Made by a program: the position numbers and the translations under genes | Assembly (NCBI GenBank): GCA_052389415.1 | Contig: JBQTHX010000051.1 | Coordinates: 1-14,620 of the forward strand | DNA from: Nitrosopumilaceae archaeon | Lineage (GTDB): Archaea > Thermoproteota > Nitrososphaeria > Nitrososphaerales > Nitrosopumilaceae | Reading direction: 5' to 3' | DNA length: 14,620 nt | Shown here: in pieces, positions 1 through 13,905 of the stretch | Layout of the letters: every line of letters starts with the position of its first letter | How positions within the stretch are numbered: position 1 is the first letter of the stretch | Notes under the pieces: model-generated | What the model was told of the DNA's origin: nothing | Database searches by the model: none | Seen by the model: only the letters and a program-made list of their open reading frames with translations

Positions 1-124
1 CAACTGATTCTACCTCAGATTCGACAACTGATACAGCTACAACTGATTCTACCTCAGATTCGACAACTGATACAGCTACAACTGATTCTACCTCAGATTC
101 GACAACTGATACAGCTACAACTGA
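1..124 (+). repeat. Perfect 39-bp coding tandem repeat, 3 full copies plus partial (13-aa unit TDSTSDSTTDTAT); may extend upstream of the window
   Basis: caactgattctacctcagattcgacaactgatacagcta at 1-39, 40-78 and 79-117, followed by caactga. Confidence 0.95.
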
Positions 125-3100
125 ACCTATCCAAGAAGAATCAAATTCAGCTGACACAAGCTCGACTGATACTTCCTCAGATGTAACAACAGATACTTCG
201 AATACAAATTCTGAAACAAGTGACACTAGTTCTAATGAATTACCAACGTCTGATTCTACTTATTCAGACTTAACAGAGACAACTGCACCAGCAGACACCA
301 CGACTGATTCAAGTCAAGATGGTTCTACAACAAGTGATTCTGCACCTGCTGAAACTACAACTGATTCAAGCACAACGGACACTGCATCACCAGAATCTAA
401 TTCCACTGATACAACATCAGACTCGAACTCAACTGATACGACAACAGAAACTACAGAGTCAACAGATGCATCATCTGAAACTAGCGAATCAACTGATACC
501 ACAACTGAACCAGCAGCTTCAGAACAAGCTTCAGAAACAGCAGCTTCAGAAACAGCAGCTTCAGAAACAGCACCAGAGCCTGAAACCGTTGATACAGCAG
601 CTTCGACCAATTCTACTTCACTAGATTCTACTGTTACATTAGAACATGATTCCATTGAGATTGGCAATCCAGTTACCTGGGTTCAAACTGTAACATTATC
701 TGATGAAACAGAGAGTGTTCGAGTCGAGCTTCCTGCTGACGCAGAAATTATTGCAGTCTCTACATCTGATGGACAAGCCATTTCCTCAACAGATATAGTT
801 GAAGAGGCACCACAGACAGTTACTAGTGATTCTGCTCCTGTTATTTCATTAAATGATGTTTCTGAAACCTTGCAGGAAGATGCTGATACTAAACTTGTTG
901 CAATTGACGAACCTGCAACCGGATATGACATCGCATTTGAGACTCCTGCTCCATATACAATAGAAGAGGATCATTCCACTCCAGATCTATACCAAAAAGA
1001 TGTTACCGTAACTCATGATTCCGCTCTACACTATACTGATGTCAGATCATATTCTAGTCTCCCAGAAGATTTGGTTTCACAAGGTGTAGAGTTTAAACTA
1101 TACGGGATGGTTGATGGTGTCAAGACTGATGTAACAACTGATCCTAGATTTGCAGTCGCTTTTGTTGATACTGATGGAAATGGAATTGTTGATCAGATGC
1201 AGTGGACTGTACCACAGTTATCAGAGCAACAGTTTGTTATTGAAGCTCAAATCACAATTCTTAATGTTCAATCATATCCAGTAGTAGGTGGAGAATGGAT
1301 TGTTAGATTTACAACTGTAGGTACTGCGGATCTTACTATTACAGCTATCAACGACACAACATTTGGAGAAACAGCTCCGGATGATCTAAAATTCTTAGAG
1401 TTAAACGATGGCACGCAGACACTTATACCAGAGATATCTGGAAATTCTATAATTTATCAAAACTATTCTAGTGATGCTGAAGGCTTTGAGAGGTCCCTTG
1501 TTCTAACCGAGGGAATACATGATTTAGAATTTAAATTTGGAAATGTTGTACAATTTGCACACAATCATGCTACAGGTAATCCGCCAGCGGCGCCTTCACT
1601 TGACCTTCTAACAGTTTTATCATCATCATCGATCAAATTAGATTGGAGCAGCGGTTCAATAGAGGATGGAGGTCATAATGTTCAAGTTTTTCGCTGTTCA
1701 CCACCTCCATCCTGTACTCTCGGATTAATAGCTACTACAGCCAATAACGCAGTTACTTTTACTGATACCGGCCTTTCTGCTAGCACAGCTTATCTGTACG
1801 CCATTAAAGAAAGGCATGGGGCAAGTAATGTTAGTCCTTTTTCTAATTCCTTGTCAGGAACAACATTAGGTGTTAGTACCTCAGCTGACCTTTCAATATC
1901 AAAATCAGATTTACTTGATCCAGTGGACGAAGGAGATGCCATAACATACACAATTGTAGTTACTAATGGTGGCCCAAGTACAGCAACTAGTCTTACTGTT
2001 ACAGATACGCTCCCTGCTGGAGTCGCATTTGTTAGTGCCACAGGTACAGGCTGGAGCTGTGGAGAATTAGGTGGTATAGTAACCTGTACAAGAGCATCTC
2101 TAGCTGTTGGTGTAGCACCTGATATTACAATTACAGTTACAGCTCCATCACAGGGAGCCTCTTTACTCAATAGTGTTTCAGTATCAAGTTCCACTACTGA
2201 TCCTACTCCTGGTAACAATTCCGATAGTGAAACTACCGCAGTTACAGGCGAAGCAGACGTTGAGGTTTCAAAAGCAGATGATATCGAGCCAGCTCTAGCA
2301 GGTATAGACACCATAATTTACACAGTTACAGTTACCAACAATGATGCTGATGATGACGCAACAAATGTTGTTGTCACAGATGTACTCCCAGCTGGAGTCA
2401 CATATGTCAGCGATACACCATCACAAGGATCATTTGCTTCTGGTACTGGCATATGGACAGTCGGTACATTAACACCGGGTCAAACTGAAACACTAGACAT
2501 TGAAGTTACTGTAGATGTTGCCACGCCAAGTGGTATAATCACAAACACCGCATCTGTAGTTTCAGACAATGATCAGACTGCCGGAAATGATTCAGATTCA
2601 GAAGACACTACTATCATAGGCGAAGCAGACGTTTCAGTAGACAAATCAGGATCCTCCTATGCTATTGTTGGCAACGATTTAGTTTACACCGTTTCAGTTA
2701 CAAACAATGATGCTGACGATGCAGCAACAAGTGTTGTTGTTACAGACGTTCTCCCAGCTGGGGTCACATATGTATCTCCAGCAGTTCCAGACATTTGTAC
2801 TGAAGGACCAGCAGGCACTCTGACATGTGACTTTGGTTCAGTAGCAGCTGGTGCAACTGAGAGTGTTGACATTACAGTAACCGTGGACGCAGATACTATA
2901 GCTGGTACAATAACAAACACAGCATCAGTTTCATCAACTAATGACCAGAACGGTACAAATGATTCAGACAGTGTATCTACTACCGTGTTACCGGCAGTCT
3001 TGATTACAAATGGAGCTGCATATCCTGGATTTGATAAATTAAGTGATGTTGCAGGACGTCAGTTCAATCATATACTCACTCATTATGATCAAACCTACTA

Positions 3101-3881
3101 CAAAGTAACTGCCACCAACCCAGGACAATTCTTTGGTTACTTCTTCTTTGTAGGTGAACCAGGATCAGAAATATCTGCGACCGAGTTAATTACAACCCTT
3201 CCATTCCCATTTGTTACACAAGGAGCTGAACCAATCAAAGTTTATGATACAGCTGCTCTAGTTGATGGCTCGATTCAGCTATCTGGTGATACGCCATTTA
3301 CAGTTTCAGGCACTGACACAACAACTCCAAGTGGTGCTCTTGCAGTAGAATTGGCAGATTATGATCCACAAGACTTTGGAGAAACAGTACCGCTTGAATT
3401 TACAGGTACAGTACCAAGTTCAGGATTATTTGCAATAAAGGTCAAACTAGATTGGGGACTCAAGGCAAGCTACTCCTATCTACCAGACATTCCAACTAAT
3501 GATGCTGTAGGACAAGCACCAAATACTCTAAGAATAGTTCACCTAGATGACTTTACATTCGTACTAACAGGTGATGTTTCTGGTTCTGAAACTATAGAAA
3601 ATAACAACATCTTCAAGAATGATCCAGGATTTGCAGGACTGGTTCTAAGCTCTTCTGACAACACTCCAGTTCCTAACGTAAAGATAGAGTTTTGGACCTC
3701 TGGTACTGGAGCAAAGAAACTTGGTGAAACCTTTACAGATGAGAATGGATACTATTCTTACTATTACAAGCACACAGGAAAGGCAACCACCTATATCGTG
3801 AAACTTCCAGACTATGGCCAGCAACAATCAGTGACACTAAAATCCAATCAATTTGCAATCTTGCAATTTTTTGTATCTTAA
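3..3881 (+). CDS. Very large surface protein, 5'-truncated (>1290 aa): Ser/Thr/Asp-rich stalk, beta-rich domains, FN3, three DUF11 Ig-like domains, C-terminal carboxypeptidase-regulatory-like domain
   Basis: The frame of ORF 870..3881 is open from position 3 (TDSTSDSTTDTAT...), so TTG 870 is internal. FN3-like segment at ~1581-1866 (PPAAP..IKLDWS..FTDTGLSASTAYLY). DUF11-like repeats start at ~1881, 2250 and 2622 (ADxxxxK..I/LxYTxxVTN..AT.xVTDxLPAGV). C-terminus reads GLVLSSSDNTPVPNVKIEF..TDENGYY. Confidence 0.9.
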   Translation, partial: TDSTSDSTTDTATTDSTSDSTTDTATTDSTSDSTTDTATTEPIQEESNSADTSSTDTSSDVTTDTSNTNSETSDTSSNELPTSDSTYSDLTETTAPADTTTDSSQDGSTTSDSAPAETTTDSSTTDTASPESNSTDTTSDSNSTDTTTETTESTDASSETSESTDTTTEPAASEQASETAASETAASETAPEPETVDTAASTNSTSLDSTVTLEHDSIEIGNPVTWVQTVTLSDETESVRVELPADAEIIAVSTSDGQAISSTDIVEEAPQTVTSDSAPVISLNDVSETLQEDADTKLVAIDEPATGYDIAFETPAPYTIEEDHSTPDLYQKDVTVTHDSALHYTDVRSYSSLPEDLVSQGVEFKLYGMVDGVKTDVTTDPRFAVAFVDTDGNGIVDQMQWTVPQLSEQQFVIEAQITILNVQSYPVVGGEWIVRFTTVGTADLTITAINDTTFGETAPDDLKFLELNDGTQTLIPEISGNSIIYQNYSSDAEGFERSLVLTEGIHDLEFKFGNVVQFAHNHATGNPPAAPSLDLLTVLSSSSIKLDWSSGSIEDGGHNVQVFRCSPPPSCTLGLIATTANNAVTFTDTGLSASTAYLYAIKERHGASNVSPFSNSLSGTTLGVSTSADLSISKSDLLDPVDEGDAITYTIVVTNGGPSTATSLTVTDTLPAGVAFVSATGTGWSCGELGGIVTCTRASLAVGVAPDITITVTAPSQGASLLNSVSVSSSTTDPTPGNNSDSETTAVTGEADVEVSKADDIEPALAGIDTIIYTVTVTNNDADDDATNVVVTDVLPAGVTYVSDTPSQGSFASGTGIWTVGTLTPGQTETLDIEVTVDVATPSGIITNTASVVSDNDQTAGNDSDSEDTTIIGEADVSVDKSGSSYAIVGNDLVYTVSVTNNDADDAATSVVVTDVLPAGVTYVSPAVPDICTEGPAGTLTCDFGSVAAGATESVDITVTVDADTIAGTITNTASVSSTNDQNGTNDSDSVSTTVLPAVLITNGAAYPGFDKLSDVAGRQFNHILTHYDQTYYKVTATNPGQFFGYFFFVGEPGSEISATELITTLPFPFVTQGAEPIKVYDTAALVDGSIQLSGDTPFTVSGTDTTTPSGALAVELADYDPQDFGETVPLEFTGTVPSSGLFAIKVKLDWGLKASYSYLPDIPTNDAVGQAPNTLRIVHLDDFTFVLTGDVSGSETIENNNIFKNDPGFAGLVLSSSDNTPVPNVKIEFWTSGTGAKKLGETFTDENGYYSYYYKHTGKATTYIVKLPDYGQQQSVTLKSNQFAILQFFVS
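528..572 (+). repeat. 15-bp coding tandem repeat x3 (ASETA)
   Basis: gcttcagaaacagca at 528, 543 and 558, preceded by a degenerate copy. Confidence 0.9.
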
Positions 3882-6954: not shown

Positions 6955-8466
6955 TTAAGCAATCTTTTGTACAACAATCATTGCTTTGTTGTGCTCTTTC
7001 TGTTTTAGATCACTCATTGACTTTACATCTTCTCTGTCAGATTTTCCAACGTTGCTTGGATACTTGAAGACCTTGTCAGTTTTTATCACTTGACTATCAA
7101 ATGATTTCTGTGGGAACTTGGAATCAGAAAATTCTTGCGCTCTGACTTTTTCTTCTGCTACCTTGTTCCAGAATCCATCATCATGTCTTTCTGATTTTCC
7201 AATGTGGCTTCCATAAACGACAGACTCGTCATTTACTTGAGCTGGATTTACGTCAAGGTTGCCAAAGGAATCGTATGTTAGCATGTTTCCATCTGCATCT
7301 ATTACAAACTGGTTCCATGCTGGATTCTTGTAGTATGGAATGACTGCTGCTGCTGTGATTGTTTCTTCAGATGTTAATGATTCTCCTTGAATTTCAAATG
7401 CTCCAAATATGATAGTGTTCTGGTGGTTTCTGTACTCGTCTTCTGCGTTAATTACTAGATCAGTTATTGGCATCGGTTTTTGTGGAGTAAAGACAAAGGT
7501 CAAGATCATCTCTGTTTCTGTGAATGTTCTGTGTACTTCGACATCTCCAAAGAATCCGTTTGGATCTGATACTGTTAGCTGTCCGCTTTCTTCTATATAC
7601 ATAAAGTAAGTATCTGCTTTTTGAATCTCCAGATAGTCAAAAAACATGTTTACTACAACTCGTTTGATTGAATCAATTCCGTTATTGTCATATACATTTA
7701 CTTGTAATCGTTGCTCTACTCCAGTGTTCATAATCTGTGTTGGTATGTCATTAGAGTATCCTGTTAATCTTCCACCAAAGTTGTTGGCTGGTGCTCCCTC
7801 CTCCACTGAAGAGAAGCTGATTCTGCTGGTTGCTGGAGGTGTGATATCAAATGATAGTCCGCCTCTTCTAATCAATTCTGAATTTACTTGTTGGGATGAT
7901 TCGTTAGATTCAGAGTTGTCTGCTACAAATGATTCCGCTTCTATGCTTTCATTGCTCTCTGATTCATTGATTGATTCTTCTTCAACTATGCATTCGCCAA
8001 TATAGTCTCCATGTTGTTCTAGGTGTGCTGGCACTGAACTGTCTGCAACATCGATGGTCACAGGGTTTTCTGGGTCACCTTGAGGAAAGTGGCATATTGT
8101 TGTCTTGTTTTCTTGATTGTTACTGTTGCCAGATTCTTCATTGCTTTGTGATACATTGCTCTCTGATTCAGATTGTTCATTAACTATGCATTCGCCTAGG
8201 TAATCTCCGTGTTGATCAAGATGCGTTTGAACTGAACTGTCTGCAACATCGATTGTTTGAGGATTTTCTGGGTTTCCAGGAGGATAGTGGCATATTGTTG
8301 TCTTGTTTTCTTCTTGGTTATTGGATTGGCCATTTCCGTTACCTGCAGCATAAGCGTCAGTGAATGCAGACGGGAGAACTATCGTTAGTGCGCCGGTAAC
8401 TAGCACTGTGGCTAGGACGATACTGAACAGGTTTGGAATTTGGTGATTTCCAATTTTGGTCTGCAT
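6955..8466 (-). CDS. Secreted protein with two Cys/His 'TTICH.P.G.P' modules, acidic linkers and a C-terminal beta-rich domain
   Basis: Signal peptide ends in DAYA. Two copies of KTTICHxPxGxPENPxTIDVADSSVxxHLxQHGDYxGEC. ESESN-rich linkers. No C-terminal TM segment. Confidence 0.85.
   Translation of the reverse strand: MQTKIGNHQIPNLFSIVLATVLVTGALTIVLPSAFTDAYAAGNGNGQSNNQEENKTTICHYPPGNPENPQTIDVADSSVQTHLDQHGDYLGECIVNEQSESESNVSQSNEESGNSNNQENKTTICHFPQGDPENPVTIDVADSSVPAHLEQHGDYIGECIVEEESINESESNESIEAESFVADNSESNESSQQVNSELIRRGGLSFDITPPATSRISFSSVEEGAPANNFGGRLTGYSNDIPTQIMNTGVEQRLQVNVYDNNGIDSIKRVVVNMFFDYLEIQKADTYFMYIEESGQLTVSDPNGFFGDVEVHRTFTETEMILTFVFTPQKPMPITDLVINAEDEYRNHQNTIIFGAFEIQGESLTSEETITAAAVIPYYKNPAWNQFVIDADGNMLTYDSFGNLDVNPAQVNDESVVYGSHIGKSERHDDGFWNKVAEEKVRAQEFSDSKFPQKSFDSQVIKTDKVFKYPSNVGKSDREDVKSMSDLKQKEHNKAMIVVQKIA
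7984..8311 (-). repeat. Internal ~130-bp direct duplication (198-nt offset) encoding the Cys/His module
   Basis: 7984-8113 and 8182-8311 share aactatgcattcgcc, actgaactgtctgcaacatcgat and agtggcatattgttgtcttgttttct. Confidence 0.9.
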
Positions 8467-8710: not shown

Positions 8711-9403
8711 TTGTATGATTCAATCATTTTAGATTTGAAAAAGCTTGGAAACAAGGAAAAGGCCAAGGTCATGTCTGGATTTTTCAAGACAGGCAAAGGT
8801 CAGTATGGGGAAGGAGACGAATTTCTTGGGATTACAGTACCAGAGCAAAGAAAGATTGCTAAAAAATATACAAAGACTAGTCTTGCTGATGTAAAAAAAT
8901 TGCTTGAAAACAGGATACATGAATGCAGGCTGGTTGCATTATTAATTTTGGTAGAAAAATTCAAAGGCGAATCACAAAGAAAAAAGATTGTAGACTTTTA
9001 TCTTGATAATGTCAGATATGTAAACAACTGGGACCTTGTAGACCTTTCTGCAGACAAGATTCTTGGTCAGTTTGTTTTAGACAAGGACACATCCATTCTA
9101 AAAAAATTCGCAGGATCAAAGAATTTGTGGGAAAGAAGAATAGCAATTGTTTCCACGTTTACATTCATCAAACAAAACAGATTTGATGAAACTCTGAAAA
9201 TATCAAAATTATTAATTTCTGACAAACAAGATCTTATCCACAAGGCAGTAGGGTGGATGTTACGCGAAGTTGGAAAAAGAAACAAAAAGACAGAAATCGA
9301 TTTTTTAAAACAATATTACACCAAGATGCCAAGAACCATGCTTCGATATTCTATAGAAAGATTTTCAGATTCTGAAAAGAAATTTTTTATGAAGATACAT
9401 TAG
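8711..9403 (+). CDS. alkD: DNA alkylation repair protein (AlkD-like HEAT-repeat DNA glycosylase family)
   Basis: Family motifs FFKTGKGQYGEGDEFLGITVP, NNWDLVD, WERRIAIVST, DLIHKAVGWMLREVGKR, MPRTMLRYSIE. Confidence 0.9.
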   Translation: MYDSIILDLKKLGNKEKAKVMSGFFKTGKGQYGEGDEFLGITVPEQRKIAKKYTKTSLADVKKLLENRIHECRLVALLILVEKFKGESQRKKIVDFYLDNVRYVNNWDLVDLSADKILGQFVLDKDTSILKKFAGSKNLWERRIAIVSTFTFIKQNRFDETLKISKLLISDKQDLIHKAVGWMLREVGKRNKKTEIDFLKQYYTKMPRTMLRYSIERFSDSEKKFFMKIH

Positions 9404-10128
9404 ACACGAATTATTCCCTTTTCCACAAGATACTGGATTCCTTTAACAAAATCATCATCAGTTATCAGTCCATCTGACCACCACATGGCATTGTTTTTTA
9501 CCCAGTCAGGAACCTTTGTCTCTGCTACTCCAGAGGCAGGGGGAGGAAGGTTTGGAATTCTCATAATTCCCTCCTTTATCATGTACTCTATACCGTTTGT
9601 AAAGTCAGATTCTCTAATGGCACCTTCTGCAAACCACTTGGCATTGTCTTTAATCCAGTCAGGAATGCTAGTAGCTGCCTCTTTGCCAACAGAAGTTACA
9701 TGCATCTGAATTGTCTCAACCGCGGGATCATTTTCAGAGTTTAGCGAAAGGTTTGTTATAAAAATGTCAGAAAAAGTAATCTTGGTCTCGCATTTGCCGT
9801 CCTGACATACTGCCAGACTTGCAGTCTTGATATGTTTTCCACTAACTGAACTCTCAAAAAGTACAGGAGAGGATTTGTCTATTTGCTTGTGTATTGTAAG
9901 TTTGTTATCTTCTCCTGATTCAAGTCTTACAGAACCAGATACAAAGTCTAGATCTGATTCATTGTACTGGACAGAATACAACTGAATCCATCCACTTTCT
10001 CCCAATATGGTAGACTCGCCATCAATCCCATCTAATTTCAAAAAATAGTCTACTTGGGCAGAATAGGAATTGGCCAAAAATGAAGAACTAAACAAAACTG
10101 AAACTAGAAAAAAAACTGTCTTTCTCAT
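9400..10128 (-). CDS. Secreted diverged Hcp/TssD-like domain fused to a duplicated thaumarchaeal IPxWIKxNAxW domain
   Basis: Signal peptide of ~24 aa (..NSYSA). Hcp motifs DYFLKLDGIDGES, KQIDKSSPVLF, SGKHIK, ITFSDIFIT. C-terminal IPDWIKDNAKWFAEGAI..F..GIEYMIKEGI and VPDWVKNNAMWWSDGLITDDDFVKGIQYLVEKGII. Stop codon overlaps the alkD stop. Confidence 0.85.
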   Translation of the reverse strand: MRKTVFFLVSVLFSSSFLANSYSAQVDYFLKLDGIDGESTILGESGWIQLYSVQYNESDLDFVSGSVRLESGEDNKLTIHKQIDKSSPVLFESSVSGKHIKTASLAVCQDGKCETKITFSDIFITNLSLNSENDPAVETIQMHVTSVGKEAATSIPDWIKDNAKWFAEGAIRESDFTNGIEYMIKEGIMRIPNLPPPASGVAETKVPDWVKNNAMWWSDGLITDDDFVKGIQYLVEKGIIRV

Positions 10129-10209
10129 TTATTCAACTACTTTTTGCTGTCTATTAAACAATAAGTTCAATTTTACGAAGAGCTTAATAACATCAAAAAA
10201 TAATTAATT
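10129..10209. promoter_or_regulatory. Back-to-back archaeal promoters for the two Hcp genes (probably leaderless transcripts)
   Basis: Plus strand: purine-rich cgaagag and cttaataa (10183-10190) about 20 nt before TTG 10210. Minus strand: tttaatag (10151-10158) about 23 nt before ATG 10128. Confidence 0.55.
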
Positions 10210-10761
10210 TTGTTGAAGAATCTCTGGCTTTTACCAATATTATTTGCAATCTTAATTACATCAAGCTTTTCTAACGCATTTGCAGCTTCAGATTATTTCC
10301 TAAAAATTGAAGGAGTTGAAGGAGAGTCCACTGATGACAAACACAAAGGCACTATCGAGATAGATTCTTTCTCTTGGGGCGTTTCAAATGCAGGTTCTAT
10401 GGCTAGTGGAGGCGGAGGTGGAGCTGGCAAGGCAACATTTCAGGATATGCACTTTACGATGAAAGTTGGTAAGGCTTCACCAAAATTAATGATGGCAGTT
10501 GCTACAGGTGAACACATAAAACAAGTCGACCTGATGTTACGCAAGGCTGGAAGCACACAAATGGATTACTATACAATCACTCTAAGTGATGTTTTGGTAA
10601 CATCCTACTCTACTTCGGGAGAATCGGGTCAAGTACCGACAGAACAAATATCGCTAAACTATGCAAAGATAGAGTTCCAGTACATTCCGATAAATCCAGA
10701 TGGTAGGGCCGGTGAGGCAGTAAAGGCTGGTTATGACGTTAAAGCAAACGTGAAAATATAG
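10210..10761 (+). CDS. hcp: Hcp/TssD family (type VI secretion tube) protein with an N-terminal Sec signal peptide
   Basis: Mature region resembles Hcp1 end to end: DYFLKIEGVEGES.D..H...I...SFSWGVS, GGGGGAGKATFQD, ASPKLMMA.ATGEHI, LRKAG..Y.ITLSDVLVTS, TEQISLNYAKIEFQY, GYDVKAN. It is preceded by the 25-aa MLKNLWLLPILFAILITSSFSNAFA. Confidence 0.93.
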   Translation: MLKNLWLLPILFAILITSSFSNAFAASDYFLKIEGVEGESTDDKHKGTIEIDSFSWGVSNAGSMASGGGGGAGKATFQDMHFTMKVGKASPKLMMAVATGEHIKQVDLMLRKAGSTQMDYYTITLSDVLVTSYSTSGESGQVPTEQISLNYAKIEFQYIPINPDGRAGEAVKAGYDVKANVKI

Positions 10762-10824
10762 ATTTAGAAATAACTCTAGGAACCTATTTTGAAAAATTTC
10801 ATGTAACACAAAACAAAATCTTTT

Positions 10825-11955: not shown

Positions 11956-13905
11956 TTGGCTAGATTACAATTAAAATTATTATTTGCTATTTCCGTTCTA
12001 GTACTTGGAATGGTCAGCATGGGAGGCACTGCCTATGCAGACAAGGGTGGAATTCCAAATGAAAATGCAAGCAAGAACAAATCAAAAAACCAAAGTGATG
12101 ATGACGACTCGGATGACAAGGTAAAGCAAAAGGGAAAGAAGGAAAAGGAAGAAAAGAAAGAAAAAGACGAAAAGGAAAAGCAAAACAAGGGTAAGGATAA
12201 AAAACAAAAAGAGAAACAACACTCAAAGAAAGGAAAGAAAAAGACTACGATCTGTCACATTCCGCCAGGCAACCCATCTAATGCAAGAACAATCTCGATC
12301 TCAAACAAGGCAGTAGCTGCACACTTGGCACATGGAGATCATGTAGGCAGATGTACCGCTGAAGAAAGTGGTGGAGGTTCAGGTGGCGGATCAGGTGGAG
12401 GAAATAATAATGCCCCCAAAGTTTCTAGTGTCTCATCAACCAACCAAGACGGTTCATATCATGCTGGTGACACAATTGCAGTTACTGTCTCATTTAACAA
12501 AGCAATGACTGTAACCGGTTCACCAAAATTACAACTAGAGACAGGTGCAACTGATAGATCTGCAAATTATGTCTCAGGTTCAGGAACCAATAAACTGACA
12601 TTTAATTATCTAGTCCAGTCAGGCGACATTTCTAGCGACTTGGATTATGTATCAACAAACGCTCTGTCCTTAAACGGAGGAACGATTAGAGATTCTGCAA
12701 ACACAAATGCAAATCTTACTTTACCAGCACCAGGAGCTGCAAATTCTCTTGCGGCAAATAAGAACATCGTTATCACAACAACAAATCCTGCAGTGGCTAG
12801 TGTTTCATCGACTAATGCAAACGGTGCATATGTTGCAGGAAATAATATTGCAATCACAATAACGTTTTCAGAATCTGTTACTGTAACGGGTACTCCACGT
12901 CTTCAGCTGGAGACTGGGACAACTGACAGAACAATAAATTATGCAAGCGGTTCTGGCACTAACACATTGACATTTAATTATGTAGTTCAATCAGGTGACT
13001 CGACAAGTGATCTTGACTATGTATCTACTACTTCACTGACACTAAACGGTGGAACGATAAAAGACACTGCAACAAACACTAACAATGCTGTACTGACCCT
13101 GTCAGCACCGGGAGCATTAAACTCACTAGGCGCAAACAAGAACATTTCAATTGATACTGTTTCACCTGTTGTAACAAACGTCTCTGCAACAACTGCTAAC
13201 GGTGCATACAACACTGGCGATACAATATCTATTACGGTAACATTTAGCCAATCAGTTGTTGTAACAGGAACACCACAATTGTTACTAGAAACAGGAACCA
13301 CTGACAGGCAATCAAATTATGCGAGTGGCTCTAGTACCACTACACTAACATTTGATTACATTGTCCAGCCAGGCGACTCGACAAGTGATCTTGATTATCT
13401 TACATCTACCTCATTAACACTAAACGGTGGAACCATAAAGGATGGAGCAACAAACACTAACAATGCTGTACTTACTCTCCCATCACCTGGTTTAGCAGGT
13501 TCGCTAGGCGCAAATAAGAACATCATAATTGATGCTGTGGCACCAACCGTGACTAACGTCTCATCTAACTCCGCCAATGGATCATACAACGTAGGCCAGA
13601 TTATTGCAGTCACGGTAACATTTAGTGAGGACGTCAATGTTTCGGGCTCGCCACGATTGCTTCTTGAAACAGGTACCACTGACAGATTTGCAACCTTTGT
13701 CAGCGGCTCTGGAACAAACACATTGACATTTAATTATCAAGTTCAAATAGGTGATTCTACAGCTGATCTTGATTATGTTTCTGCCACATCACTTGAGCTA
13801 AATGGTGGAACCATTAGCGATGCTGTAAGCAACAACGCAGTTCTTACCTTGCCGGTGCCAGGAGCAGTTGGTTCTCTTGGTCTAAACAAAAACATTGTAA
13901 TCTAG
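11956..13905 (+). CDS. Secreted adhesin-like protein: Lys/Glu-rich segment, Cys/His module, Gly-Ser linker, four tandem ~125-aa Ig-like repeats
   Basis: Signal peptide ends in [26 protein letters not shown], then [11 protein letters not shown]. Repeat consensus PxVxxVS..G.Y..G..I.xTxxF...VxGxPxLxLETGxTDR..SGS..LTFxY.VQ.GD...DLDY...LNGGTI.D. TATA tttataaa at 11926-11933. Confidence 0.9.
12412..13902 (+). repeat. Four tandem domain-coding repeats (372/378/378-nt period)
   Basis: Repeat-initial Pro codons at 12415, 12787, 13165 and 13543; copies 2 and 3 share gactcgacaagtgatcttga and caacaaacactaacaatgctgtact. Confidence 0.92.

What the first reader, a model, noticed from the sequence alone, without database searches (positions are those of the whole stretch)
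9400..10128. Second, diverged Hcp fused to a thaumarchaeal IPDWIK domain: candidate anchor, nucleator or cap
Seen: signal peptide, then an Hcp-like domain (~9690-10056), then two IP/VPDWxKxNAxW repeats (~9400-9666). Relative to its neighbour it keeps DYFLKxxGxxGES, KxSPxL and GxHIK. It replaces the Gly-rich loop, lacks the C-terminal YxP..DG...GYD segment and gains a CQDGKC pair compatible with an extracellular disulfide. Established: the IPxWIKNNAxWW repeat is a common C-terminal module of secreted thaumarchaeal proteins with unclear function. Inference: a bacterial-type tube fold has been joined to a host-specific surface module, indicating real domestication, and the changed loop could restrict stacking so that it starts or ends a tube.
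Basis: partly seen in the sequence, partly recalled or inferred. Interest (0 to 1): 0.85.

Follow-up and report, generated by a model that had tools for sequence, protein, structure and literature searches.

The report
Secreted, tethered Hcp ring protein in archaea
An ammonia-oxidizing archaeon with no type VI secretion system makes a protein that has the Hcp tube fold, an export signal and a surface-type module found only in its own family, so a bacterial weapon part seems to have been reused outside the cell.

Summary
Window 9400-10128(-) is a 242-aa ORF: a signal-peptide-like N-terminus, an Hcp domain (Pfam PF05638, E 2.5e-18; Foldseek top hits are all solved Hcp structures) and two ~40-aa IPxWIKNNAxWW repeats.

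It sits head to head with a 183-aa Hcp that also has a signal-peptide-like N-terminus. At least 8 genomes of the same family carry this two-gene pair, while the flanking genes differ. TssC was found in 0 of 401 family genomes. The own genome (94% complete) has no VgrG, phage sheath or gp25/TssE match.

The nearest bacterial relatives are 160-163-aa Hcps that start MAAVDYFLK with no signal peptide. The archaeal and CPR copies carry a hydrophobic leader placed exactly at that point.

The repeat pair folds as two helical hairpins with no analogue in the PDB. It occurs in 44 of 44 sampled Nitrosopumilaceae genomes and in 0 of 257 genomes from other families. Its partner proteins are secreted enzymes, and one is the PstS of a pst operon.

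A complex model supports lateral binding to the neighbouring Hcp (ipSAE 0.78 against 0.00 for the best control), but this may reflect memory of solved Hcp rings.

Best reading: a T6SS-independent, envelope-tethered Hcp ring subunit. The cap or nucleator idea was not tested. I found no paper describing this.

The parts
10057..10128 (-). Signal-peptide-like leader, aa 1-24: MRK, a hydrophobic core, then SYSA before Q25
   Evidence: Read from the sequence. S23 and Q25 are invariant and A24 nearly invariant in 21 orthologues. AF2 pLDDT is below 50 for aa 11-23. No signal-peptide predictor was available, so cleavage is inferred.
9691..10056 (-). Hcp-fold domain, aa 25-146. It is cut short after profile position 121 of 129 and lacks the neighbour's last ~28 residues.
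   Evidence: PF05638 E 2.5e-18 over aa 29-143. Genome scan places it at 9700-10044. AF2 model. Foldseek top hit is Hcp1 5xhh at E 7.4e-11, probability 1.0, TMt 0.66.
9790..9807 (-). C108-Q-D-G-K-C113, a cysteine pair at the turn between the two long strands. It is a candidate extracellular disulfide.
   Evidence: Both cysteines are invariant in 21 of 21 orthologues. Strands E100-109 and E112-130 flank it in the model. The neighbouring Hcp has no cysteine. The disulfide itself is inferred.
9553..9669 (-). Module repeat 1, aa 154-192: IPDWIKDNAKWFAEG...GIEYMIKEGIMRI. A two-helix hairpin.
   Evidence: Repeat profile E 8.9e-21. Helices at 157-167 and 173-185.
9403..9516 (-). Module repeat 2, aa 205-242: VPDWVKNNAMWWSDG...GIQYLVEKGIIRV. 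A two-helix hairpin that runs to the C-terminus.
   Evidence: Repeat profile E 5.1e-23. Helices at 208-218 and 224-236. The module-only model has pLDDT 82.9 and pTM 0.70.
10129..10209 (.). 81-bp divergent intergenic region with two conserved A/T-rich blocks (TTATTAAACAAT and GAAGAGCTTAATAA). These are probably two back-to-back archaeal promoters.
   Evidence: Alignment of 7 orthologous spacers has 77% mean column identity. The promoter role is inferred and there are no transcript data.
10210..10761 (+). Partner gene: a 183-aa full-length Hcp with its own signal-peptide-like leader (…SNAFAAS before DYFLK).
   Evidence: PF05638 E 2.7e-44 over profile positions 1-129 of 129. The head-to-head pairing recurs in relatives. 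Complex model.

Best explanation
The gene encodes an Hcp-fold ring subunit that is exported by the Sec pathway and works without any type VI secretion machine.

Proposed steps:
1. After the leader is removed, the mature protein starts two residues before DYFLK. Cytoplasmic bacterial Hcps start at the same place.
2. The Hcp domain joins laterally with the free secreted Hcp encoded head to head next door. Together they form rings, and possibly short stacks, outside the membrane.
3. The two C-terminal helical hairpins belong to a module found only in Nitrosopumilaceae, where it decorates many exported proteins. They hold the assembly at the cell envelope.

Shown: the fold, the architecture, the conservation, the missing T6SS genes, the bacterial ancestry of the domain and the family-wide use of the module.

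Inferred: export, disulfide formation, ring formation, hetero-assembly and envelope tethering.

What the tethered ring does is not known. It could act as a scaffold, a conduit or a holder of cargo.
For: Fold and family:
- PF05638 E 2.5e-18; PDB sequence hits are Hcp proteins; AF2 mean pLDDT 81.4; Foldseek hits are all Hcp.

No T6SS or other contractile system:
- TssC was found in 0 of 1 own genome and 0 of 401 genomes of the same family.
- VgrG/gpD, phage sheath and gp25/TssE were not found in the own genome, which is 94% complete.

Leader grafted onto a bacterial Hcp:
- Among the best 80 genomic relatives of the partner Hcp, 10 of 11 archaeal loci and 2 of 2 CPR loci have a hydrophobic N-terminal extension ending A-x-A just before DYFLK. 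The eleventh archaeal locus is cut by a contig end.
- 0 of 67 other bacterial loci have such an extension. Most of them start MAAV/MAQV-DYFLK at 160-163 aa.
- The one Acidobacteria genome tested has TssC (E 2.5e-140). The Saccharibacteria, Peribacteria and Nitrososphaera genomes do not.

Conserved unit:
- 16 clusters of 229-249 aa are 47-80% identical over the Hcp part.
- 40 of the 120 listed module carriers have PF05638 (counted by hand).
- The head-to-head pair with the module was verified in 8 genomes: G000, G026, G105, G075, G112, G244, G134 and G017. Only the two Hcp genes are syntenic.
- The cysteine pair is invariant, and the module is better conserved than the Hcp part.

Module as a general tag of exported proteins:
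- 16 ORFs in this genome carry it. Partners include M10-like peptidases, an NHL propeller with SNase, and a cupredoxin.
- One carrier is the PstS of a pstC-pstA-pstB-phoU operon. A binding protein of an ABC importer has to stay at the cell.
- The module is in 44 of 44 family genomes, with 4-18 matches each.

Binding to the neighbour:
- ipSAE 0.78 (runs 0.77-0.78) against a best control of 0.00. The runs agree in at least 85% of contacts and the partner's pLDDT is at least 80.
- This mark was reached by 58 of 80 solved complexes and 2 of 110 mismatched pairs.
- The interface pairs a strand of the neighbour (aa 53-62) with a strand of the fusion (aa 124-132).
Against: - No signal-peptide predictor was run and there are no expression or proteomic data.
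- The complex pass may come from the model's memory of solved Hcp hexamers. It covers only a dimer and says nothing about rings, stoichiometry or stacking.
- The stricter NCBIfam model TIGR03344 scores 25.2 bits, below its 58.9 cut-off.
- The domain lacks the C-terminal segment that forms part of the neighbour's contact face in the model (aa 156-160, 171-175, 182). Ring closure by this subunit is therefore uncertain.
- The module has no structural analogue: 0 PDB and 0 BFVD hits at E<=1e-3. Its ligand is unknown, so 'anchor' rests on its partner proteins alone.
- Hcp genes are patchy: 48 of 401 family genomes score over the cut-off and 5 of 10 in the own genus have a match. This is an accessory trait.
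Confidence: 0.55

Rival explanations
1. Display hub. The Hcp domain only makes the protein a homo-hexamer, so that six or twelve copies of the C-terminal part act together by avidity. The neighbouring short Hcp works separately, and no mixed ring or tube forms.
For: In relatives the same N-terminal Hcp domain carries long adhesin-type tails of 576-977 aa: HYR, TSP_3, the MopE copper motif, Big_3_5, Big_7 and NHL/YncE propellers. This fits a general oligomerising head. Single-chain proteins with six tandem Hcp domains exist, 32 among the best 150 representatives, which points to the six-fold ring as the working unit.
Against: A short Hcp sits directly beside the extended one in nearly every locus examined. 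A hetero-contact is predicted. The fusion lacks part of one lateral face, which makes a pure homo-ring less obvious.
Confidence: 0.2
2. The diverged subunit starts or ends a tube built from the 10210 Hcp. It acts as an anchor-nucleator or cap because its changed loop and missing C-terminus allow contacts on one side only.
For: The Gly-rich loop is replaced and the C-terminal segment is absent. In the dimer model the neighbour contributes the face that contains its C-terminal segment, and the fusion contributes the opposite face. The fusion clade lies on a long branch, as expected after a change of role.
Against: Nothing tested here addresses ring-on-ring stacking. The loop has low model confidence (block 61-70 has pLDDT 65). 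There is no evidence that any tube forms without a sheath and baseplate.
Confidence: 0.1
3. Cargo holder. The tethered ring binds a small secreted protein or another ligand in its lumen between the membrane and the S-layer, much as T6SS Hcp rings hold effectors (recalled knowledge).
For: The Hcp fold is retained. The surrounding genes encode many secreted proteins of unknown function.
Against: No neighbouring gene is conserved with the pair, so there is no candidate cargo. No toxin or effector domain was seen in any of the fusions scanned.
Confidence: 0.1
4. A leftover of a horizontally acquired T6SS gene with no present function, or contamination of the bin by bacterial DNA.
For: Distribution is patchy and the closest non-archaeal relatives are bacterial.
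Against: The contig has archaeal-family content: the module-bearing gene itself, plus orthologues in records named Nitrosopumilaceae and Nitrosarchaeum. The frames are intact in 21 orthologues, with invariant residues and a conserved leader. The fusion to a module found in all 44 sampled family genomes cannot come from a bacterial contaminant.
Confidence: 0.03

Closest known systems
T6SS tube protein Hcp/TssD (Pfam PF05638; solved examples include Salmonella Hcp1 5xhh, Burkholderia 4tv4 and Pseudomonas Hcp1 1y12)
   Same: Same fold and the same sequence motifs (DYFLK..G..GES, KSSP.L, G.HIK). The predicted side-by-side contact is by strand pairing, as in Hcp rings.
   Different: It has a Sec-type leader in place of a cytoplasmic start. 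No sheath, spike or baseplate genes are present. It lacks the last ~28 residues and carries an invariant cysteine pair. It is fused to a two-repeat module and occurs in archaea.
Extended Hcp proteins of bacteria (Hcp with a C-terminal toxin domain, 'Hcp-ET'). Recalled from the literature; no paper was read here.
   Same: An N-terminal Hcp domain followed by a C-terminal extension, encoded beside a plain Hcp.
   Different: The extension here is a non-enzymatic helical module shared with many exported host proteins, or adhesin-type repeats in relatives. No toxin domain was found in the 10 fusions scanned. Export would be by Sec, not by a T6SS.
Cell-envelope retention modules such as bacterial SLH domains or archaeal C-terminal sorting and anchor signals. 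This is an analogy from recalled knowledge.
   Same: A short repeated module attached to many unrelated exported proteins of one lineage, at either end of the protein.
   Different: No sequence or structural similarity to any known module was found. It is not hydrophobic enough to span a membrane, and its ligand is unknown.
Signal-peptide-bearing Hcp homologues in Nitrososphaera, Saccharibacteria, Peribacteria and many unnamed metagenomic proteins
   Same: The leader is placed at the same point before DYFLK, and the three such genomes tested have no TssC.
   Different: These lack the Nitrosopumilaceae module (0 of 4 Nitrososphaera genomes), keep the full C-terminus and have no cysteine pair. 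P0017, P0019 and P0020 are exceptions: they have a similar CQDGAC.

Membership tests
T6SS Hcp/TssD (PF05638, TIGR03344) | Sequence match to the family profile above the curated cut-off | tested here: met
   PF05638 scores 67.1 bits against a cut-off of 23.5. The narrower TIGR03344 subfamily model is not met: 25.2 bits against 58.9.
T6SS Hcp/TssD (PF05638, TIGR03344) | Hcp beta-barrel fold | tested here: met
   AF2 model. Foldseek against the PDB gives 76 hits at E<=1e-3, best 5xhh at E 7.4e-11 and TMt 0.66; 7fcf_A reaches TMt 0.76.
T6SS Hcp/TssD (PF05638, TIGR03344) | Complete domain, including the C-terminal strands | tested here: not met
   The match covers profile positions 1-121 of 129. 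The neighbour's final ~28 residues have no counterpart.
T6SS Hcp/TssD (PF05638, TIGR03344) | Made in the cytoplasm without a signal peptide and exported by the T6SS | tested here: not met
   The 24-aa leader has a charged start, a hydrophobic core and a conserved S-A-Q. Bacterial relatives start MAAVDYFLK. Cleavage was not tested by experiment.
T6SS Hcp/TssD (PF05638, TIGR03344) | The genome encodes T6SS core parts (TssB/C sheath, VgrG spike, TssE baseplate) | tested here: not met
   TssC was found in 0 of 401 family genomes. The own genome has no TssC, VgrG/gpD, phage sheath or gp25 match. That genome is 94% complete, so these are 'not found', not 'proven absent'.
T6SS Hcp/TssD (PF05638, TIGR03344) | Forms six-membered rings that stack into a tube | tested here: inconclusive
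   Only a heterodimer was modelled (ipSAE 0.78 against a best control of 0.00).
Extended Hcp toxin fusions (Hcp-ET) | The C-terminal extension is a toxin domain with a cognate immunity gene | tested here: not met
   No Pfam or NCBIfam family matches the extension. The extension is the shared module. No conserved neighbouring gene was found.
Nitrosopumilaceae IPxWIKNNAxWW module (no curated family exists) | Two ~40-aa repeats with the invariant P-x-W...N-A..W...F..G pattern, on exported proteins | tested here: met
   Alignment A4. Profile E 8.9e-21 and 5.1e-23. Genome scan E 2.9e-40 at 9403-9669.

The most novel reading that the evidence does not exclude
The pair belongs to a large, undescribed class of Sec-exported Hcp assemblies that work outside the cell with no contractile machine. 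Members occur in ammonia-oxidizing archaea, CPR bacteria and many unnamed bacteria, and the class includes single polypeptides made of six Hcp domains. In Nitrosopumilaceae the ring or tube is fixed under or in the S-layer by a family-specific envelope-binding module. That would make it a new kind of archaeal cell-surface structure derived from a bacterial weapon part.
Probability: 0.35. Interest if true: 0.85.

Novelty: new variant of a known kind. Interest (0 to 1): 0.72.

Why it matters
Hcp is known as the inner tube of a contractile bacterial weapon. According to recalled textbook knowledge, it has no signal peptide and leaves the cell only through that machine.

Here the same fold has a Sec leader. 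It sits in archaea that lack the machine, and it is joined to a module that the whole family uses on exported proteins. If the ring forms at the envelope, three things follow:
- It would be a clear case of a bacterial nanomachine part being reused in archaea.
- It would add an unrecognised component to the cell surface of globally important nitrifiers.
- The module could serve as a handle for finding what holds proteins in the space under the Nitrosopumilus S-layer. The 2024 S-layer structure paper leaves S-layer anchoring as speculation in the passages I read (PMC11153153).

The same searches suggest that secreted Hcp forms are common well beyond archaea.

Tried and rejected
Literature. Ten searches (and the S-layer search) found no paper on archaeal or Sec-exported Hcp, or on the module, in the held library.
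- searched motif strings and returned only thrips papers, through a chance match inside another word.
- I saw only listings and abstracts, plus six passages of PMC11153153.
- Supplements were closed and not seen. Supplementary protein lists of Nitrosopumilus proteomics or glycoproteomics papers might mention these genes.

Earlier findings.

Expression. No RNA holder was listed for window 9300-10800.

Module fold.
- Foldseek against the PDB and against BFVD gave no hit at E<=1e-3.
- The ESM Atlas gave only unnamed Nitrososphaerota clusters at scores of 0.76-0.77, below the level that counts as a lead.
- The module occurs on only 2 IMG/VR contigs. I did not follow these up.

Did the module join Hcp once or twice?
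- In the careful 59-row tree the 395-401-aa tandem-type fusions nest among the short Hcps, away from the ~245-aa clade.
- An AU test of one clade gave p 0.039. That is borderline, and I named the group after seeing a tree.
- The same test on the quick 106-row tree gave p 0.736. There the constrained tree scored better than the free search.
- I leave this open.

Organism names. The cluster look-ups gave none for the signal-peptide Hcps P0017-P0034.

Rejected readings.
- A phage tail or eCIS origin was rejected: there are no sheath or baseplate matches, and the leader does not fit.
- The six weakest PF05638 matches (E 1.8e-4 to 5.9e-4, below the cut-off, each with 2-3 in-frame TAG stops) are counted in '54 of 401' but are probably spurious. 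That is why I also quote 48 of 401.
Full report
What is there.

Window 9400-10128 on the minus strand is an intact 242-aa ORF. Its parts, in order:
- A leader: MRK, a hydrophobic stretch, then SYSA before Q25.
- A domain that matches Pfam T6SS_HCP (PF05638) at E 2.5e-18 over aa 29-143, covering profile positions 1-121 of 129.
- Two ~40-aa repeats at aa 154-192 and 205-242.

The gene 81 bp upstream on the other strand (10210-10761) is a 183-aa full-length Hcp (E 2.7e-44, profile positions 1-129) with its own leader. The two proteins are 31% identical over the Hcp part.

Fold.

An AlphaFold2 model built on a 115-row alignment has mean pLDDT 81.4. By 10-residue block the Hcp part runs from 65 (the aa 61-70 loop) to 97, and aa 11-23 fall below 50. 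Foldseek against the PDB returned 76 hits at E<=1e-3. The rows shown are Hcp proteins or Hcp fusions, with Salmonella Hcp1 5xhh best at E 7.4e-11, probability 1.0 and TMt 0.66. Sequence search of the PDB agrees: 5xhh at E 4.7e-9.

No T6SS.

The window is a whole contig of a 1.43-Mb, 94-contig genome that is 94% complete.
- This genome has two PF05638 matches, which are these two genes.
- It has no TssC, no VgrG/gpD, no phage sheath and no gp25/TssE.
- Across 401 genomes of the same family, TssC was found in 0.
- PF05638 was found in 54 of them: 48 over the cut-off, 28 of 246 high-quality genomes, 12 of 27 genera and 5 of 10 in the own genus.

The family is Nitrosopumilaceae. Orthologues carry that name at NCBI, and a same-genus genome contig is identical in sequence to a record titled Nitrosopumilaceae archaeon.

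Where the Hcp came from.

A scan of one genome per species found 309 relatives of the partner Hcp, and I examined the best 80.
- 67 are bacterial, mostly Acidobacteriota, with Planctomycetota, Gemmatimonadota, Pseudomonadota, Nitrospirota and others. None of the 67 has a hydrophobic N-terminal extension, and most are 160-163 aa and start MAAV/MAQV-DYFLK.
- 10 of 11 archaeal loci (Nitrosopumilaceae, Nitrosarchaeum, Nitrososphaera) and both CPR loci (Saccharibacteria, Peribacteria) have a 26-90-aa extension with a hydrophobic core. It ends A-x-A exactly where the bacterial proteins begin. The eleventh archaeal locus is cut by a contig end.
- TssC is present in the one Acidobacteria genome tested (E 2.5e-140). 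It was not found in the Nitrospira, Saccharibacteria, Peribacteria and Nitrososphaera genomes tested.

An exhaustive phmmer search with the fusion's Hcp part found 1112 representatives at E<=1e-3. I analysed the best 150:
- Of 86 single-domain proteins of 320 aa or less, 54 have a hydrophobic extension of at least 15 aa, 11 have none, 4 have a non-hydrophobic extension and 17 did not match my motif pattern.
- 32 of the 150 have exactly six Hcp domains in one chain.

Leader-bearing Hcp forms are therefore common, and the archaeal ones look like a bacterial Hcp fitted with a Sec leader. Export itself is inferred. I had no signal-peptide predictor and no experimental data.

The fusion is a conserved gene.

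- Sixteen 90%-identity clusters of 229-249 aa are 47-80% identical over the Hcp part.
- A second search found more. By my hand count, 40 of the 120 listed carriers of the module have PF05638.
- In an alignment of 21 orthologues the leader's S-A-Q, the Hcp motifs and both cysteines C108 and C113 are invariant or nearly so. The module is better conserved than the Hcp part.
- The cysteines flank the turn between the two long strands. The partner Hcp has no cysteine. An extracellular disulfide is plausible but inferred.
- In a careful tree the ~245-aa fusions form a clade with 100/99 support on a long branch of 1.42.

The two-gene unit.

- The head-to-head pair, with the module confirmed, occurs in G000, G026, G105, G075, G112, G244, G134 and G017. 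Two further genomes, G144 and G129, have frames of the right size that I did not check.
- Only the two Hcp genes are shared between these loci. The flanking genes differ.
- The 66-85-bp spacer keeps two A/T-rich blocks, which I read as two divergent promoters. That is an inference.
- A second architecture puts a 325-401-aa Hcp with the module pair in tandem after a short Hcp: L020, L022, L023, L024, L061, L123 and L142, of which L023/L061 and L020/L142 are the same places fetched twice.
- Elsewhere in the family the extended Hcp carries HYR, TSP_3, MopE-motif, Big and NHL/YncE domains and reaches 576-977 aa, again beside a short Hcp.
- No toxin domain was seen in the 10 fusions scanned.
- Whether the module joined Hcp once or twice is unresolved: AU p 0.039 on the careful set and 0.736 on the quick set.

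The module.

- Sixteen ORFs in this genome carry it, usually as a tandem pair. It is C-terminal in most. In five a copy lies just after the leader, and in one the pair is internal.
- Partner domains are M10-like metallopeptidases, an NHL propeller with a staphylococcal-type nuclease, and a cupredoxin.
- One partner is a PstS-type phosphate-binding protein that closes a pstC-pstA-pstB-phoU operon.
- No Pfam or NCBIfam model covers the module.
- Modelled alone, it forms two helical hairpins (pLDDT 82.9, pTM 0.70). There is no PDB or BFVD analogue at E<=1e-3.
- A profile of it matched 44 of 44 sampled genomes of the family, with 4-18 matches each under a scoring cap. It matched 0 of 257 genomes from other families of the phylum.
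- It matched 0 of 4 Nitrososphaera MAGs that do have leader-bearing Hcp, and 21 places in a Nitrosarchaeum MAG.
- In the protein collection, 963 of 1070 candidates matched at E<=1e-5. Further partners include FAD oxidoreductases and a polysaccharide deacetylase.

A module that tags many unrelated exported proteins of one family, including a transporter's binding protein, is most simply a retention or anchoring device. This is an inference, and its ligand is unknown.

Interaction.

I modelled the mature partner Hcp (aa 26-183) with the fusion's Hcp part (aa 24-152), each supplied with its own alignment.
- The score was ipSAE 0.78 (runs 0.78, 0.77, 0.78) against a best control of 0.00.
- The runs agree in at least 85% of contacts, and the partner's pLDDT is at least 80.
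- This mark was reached by 58 of 80 solved complexes and 2 of 110 mismatched pairs.
- The interface pairs the partner's strand at aa 53-62, plus its C-terminal segment (156-160, 171-175, 182), with the fusion's strand at aa 124-132 and its helix region (83-97).

Hcp hexamers have been solved, so this pass may only show likeness to them. It does not show that these copies bind.

One point is worth noting, though it is an inference. The face that the partner uses includes the very C-terminal segment that the fusion lacks. The fusion's own equivalent face is therefore reduced, which would make it an asymmetric ring member. I could not test rings or stacks.

Verdict.

The Hcp fold, the fusion to a host-specific module and the predicted contact with the neighbour all hold.
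- The module belongs to one family, not to thaumarchaea in general.
- The cap or nucleator role remains untested.

The most likely mechanism is a Sec-exported, T6SS-independent Hcp ring subunit that is tethered at the envelope by the module and assembles with the free Hcp next door. I put this at about 0.55.

Databases already label these genes 'Hcp' automatically. Ten literature searches in the held library turned up no description of secreted archaeal Hcp, of this fusion or of the module.

Noticed in passing
Proteins P0250, P0251, P0257 and 29 others (one search hits; not in the window): These are single polypeptides of about 900-2160 aa with exactly six tandem Hcp domains, 32 among the best 150 representatives. 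They would form a covalently linked Hcp ring. Several have long N-terminal leaders. The organisms are unnamed.
   Followed up: partly
L072, L090, L102, L112, L130 (Nitrososphaera MAGs); L073 (Saccharibacteria); L078 (Peribacteria): Hcp homologues with hydrophobic leaders occur in other ammonia oxidizers and in CPR bacteria. TssC was not found in the three such genomes tested.
   Followed up: partly
L047 6814-9747, L049 3759-6608, L050 4485-6833, L051 4123-6582, L052 4978-7152, L054 4225-6243, L056 74-2374, L057 5376-7106: In other genomes of the family the extended Hcp carries adhesin-type tails (HYR, TSP_3, MopE copper motif, Big_3_5, Big_7, NHL/YncE propeller). Each lies next to a short Hcp. 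G260 and G184 have four Hcp genes in a row.
   Followed up: partly
G000 contig C88 2656-7521 (L145): A pstC-pstA-pstB-phoU operon ends with a PstS that carries the same two-repeat module at its C-terminus.
   Followed up: yes
window 6955-8466(-) and 11956-13905(+): Both secreted proteins contain a Cys/His motif, TICHxPPGNPxNxxTI...AHLxHGDxxGxC (two copies in the first, one in the second). No Pfam family matches above its cut-off. Weak relatives of the 503-aa protein lie upstream of Hcp pairs in L061 and L123.
   Followed up: no
window 11956-13905(+): A lysine/glutamate-rich linker is followed by four ~95-aa repeats (…[15 protein letters not shown]…[12 protein letters not shown]…LNGGTI…), seen by eye in the translation. 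Pfam gives only sub-threshold hits, the best being CopC at E 1.3e-3, below its cut-off.
   Followed up: no
window 3-3881(+): A very large surface-type protein is open at the contig's 5' end. It has a Thr/Ser/Asp-rich low-complexity start and repeated 'VTNGGPS…VTDTLPAGV' units. It was not analysed.
   Followed up: no
window 8711-9403(+): A DNA alkylation repair gene (PF08713, E 5.6e-66) converges on the fusion gene and overlaps its end by 4 bases (9400-9403). It is not syntenic in relatives.
   Followed up: partly
G271, G280, G241, G261, G158, G226 (genus g25): These are weak PF05638-like matches (E about 2e-4 to 6e-4, below the cut-off) in 122-aa frames, each with 2-3 in-frame TAG stops. They recur in six genomes of one genus and are probably spurious.
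   Followed up: no
L146 3001-3297; L147 520-780 (IMG/VR contigs): The module occurs on only two contigs of the viral collection. Whether these are viral genes or host fragments was not checked.
   Followed up: no
P0017, P0019, P0020 (188-194 aa): These leader-bearing Hcp homologues from unnamed metagenomes have a CQDGAC pair at the same position as the fusion's CQDGKC, and a Pro/Thr/Lys-rich tail in place of the module. In the tree they sit on a long branch among the short Nitrosopumilaceae Hcps.
   Followed up: partly
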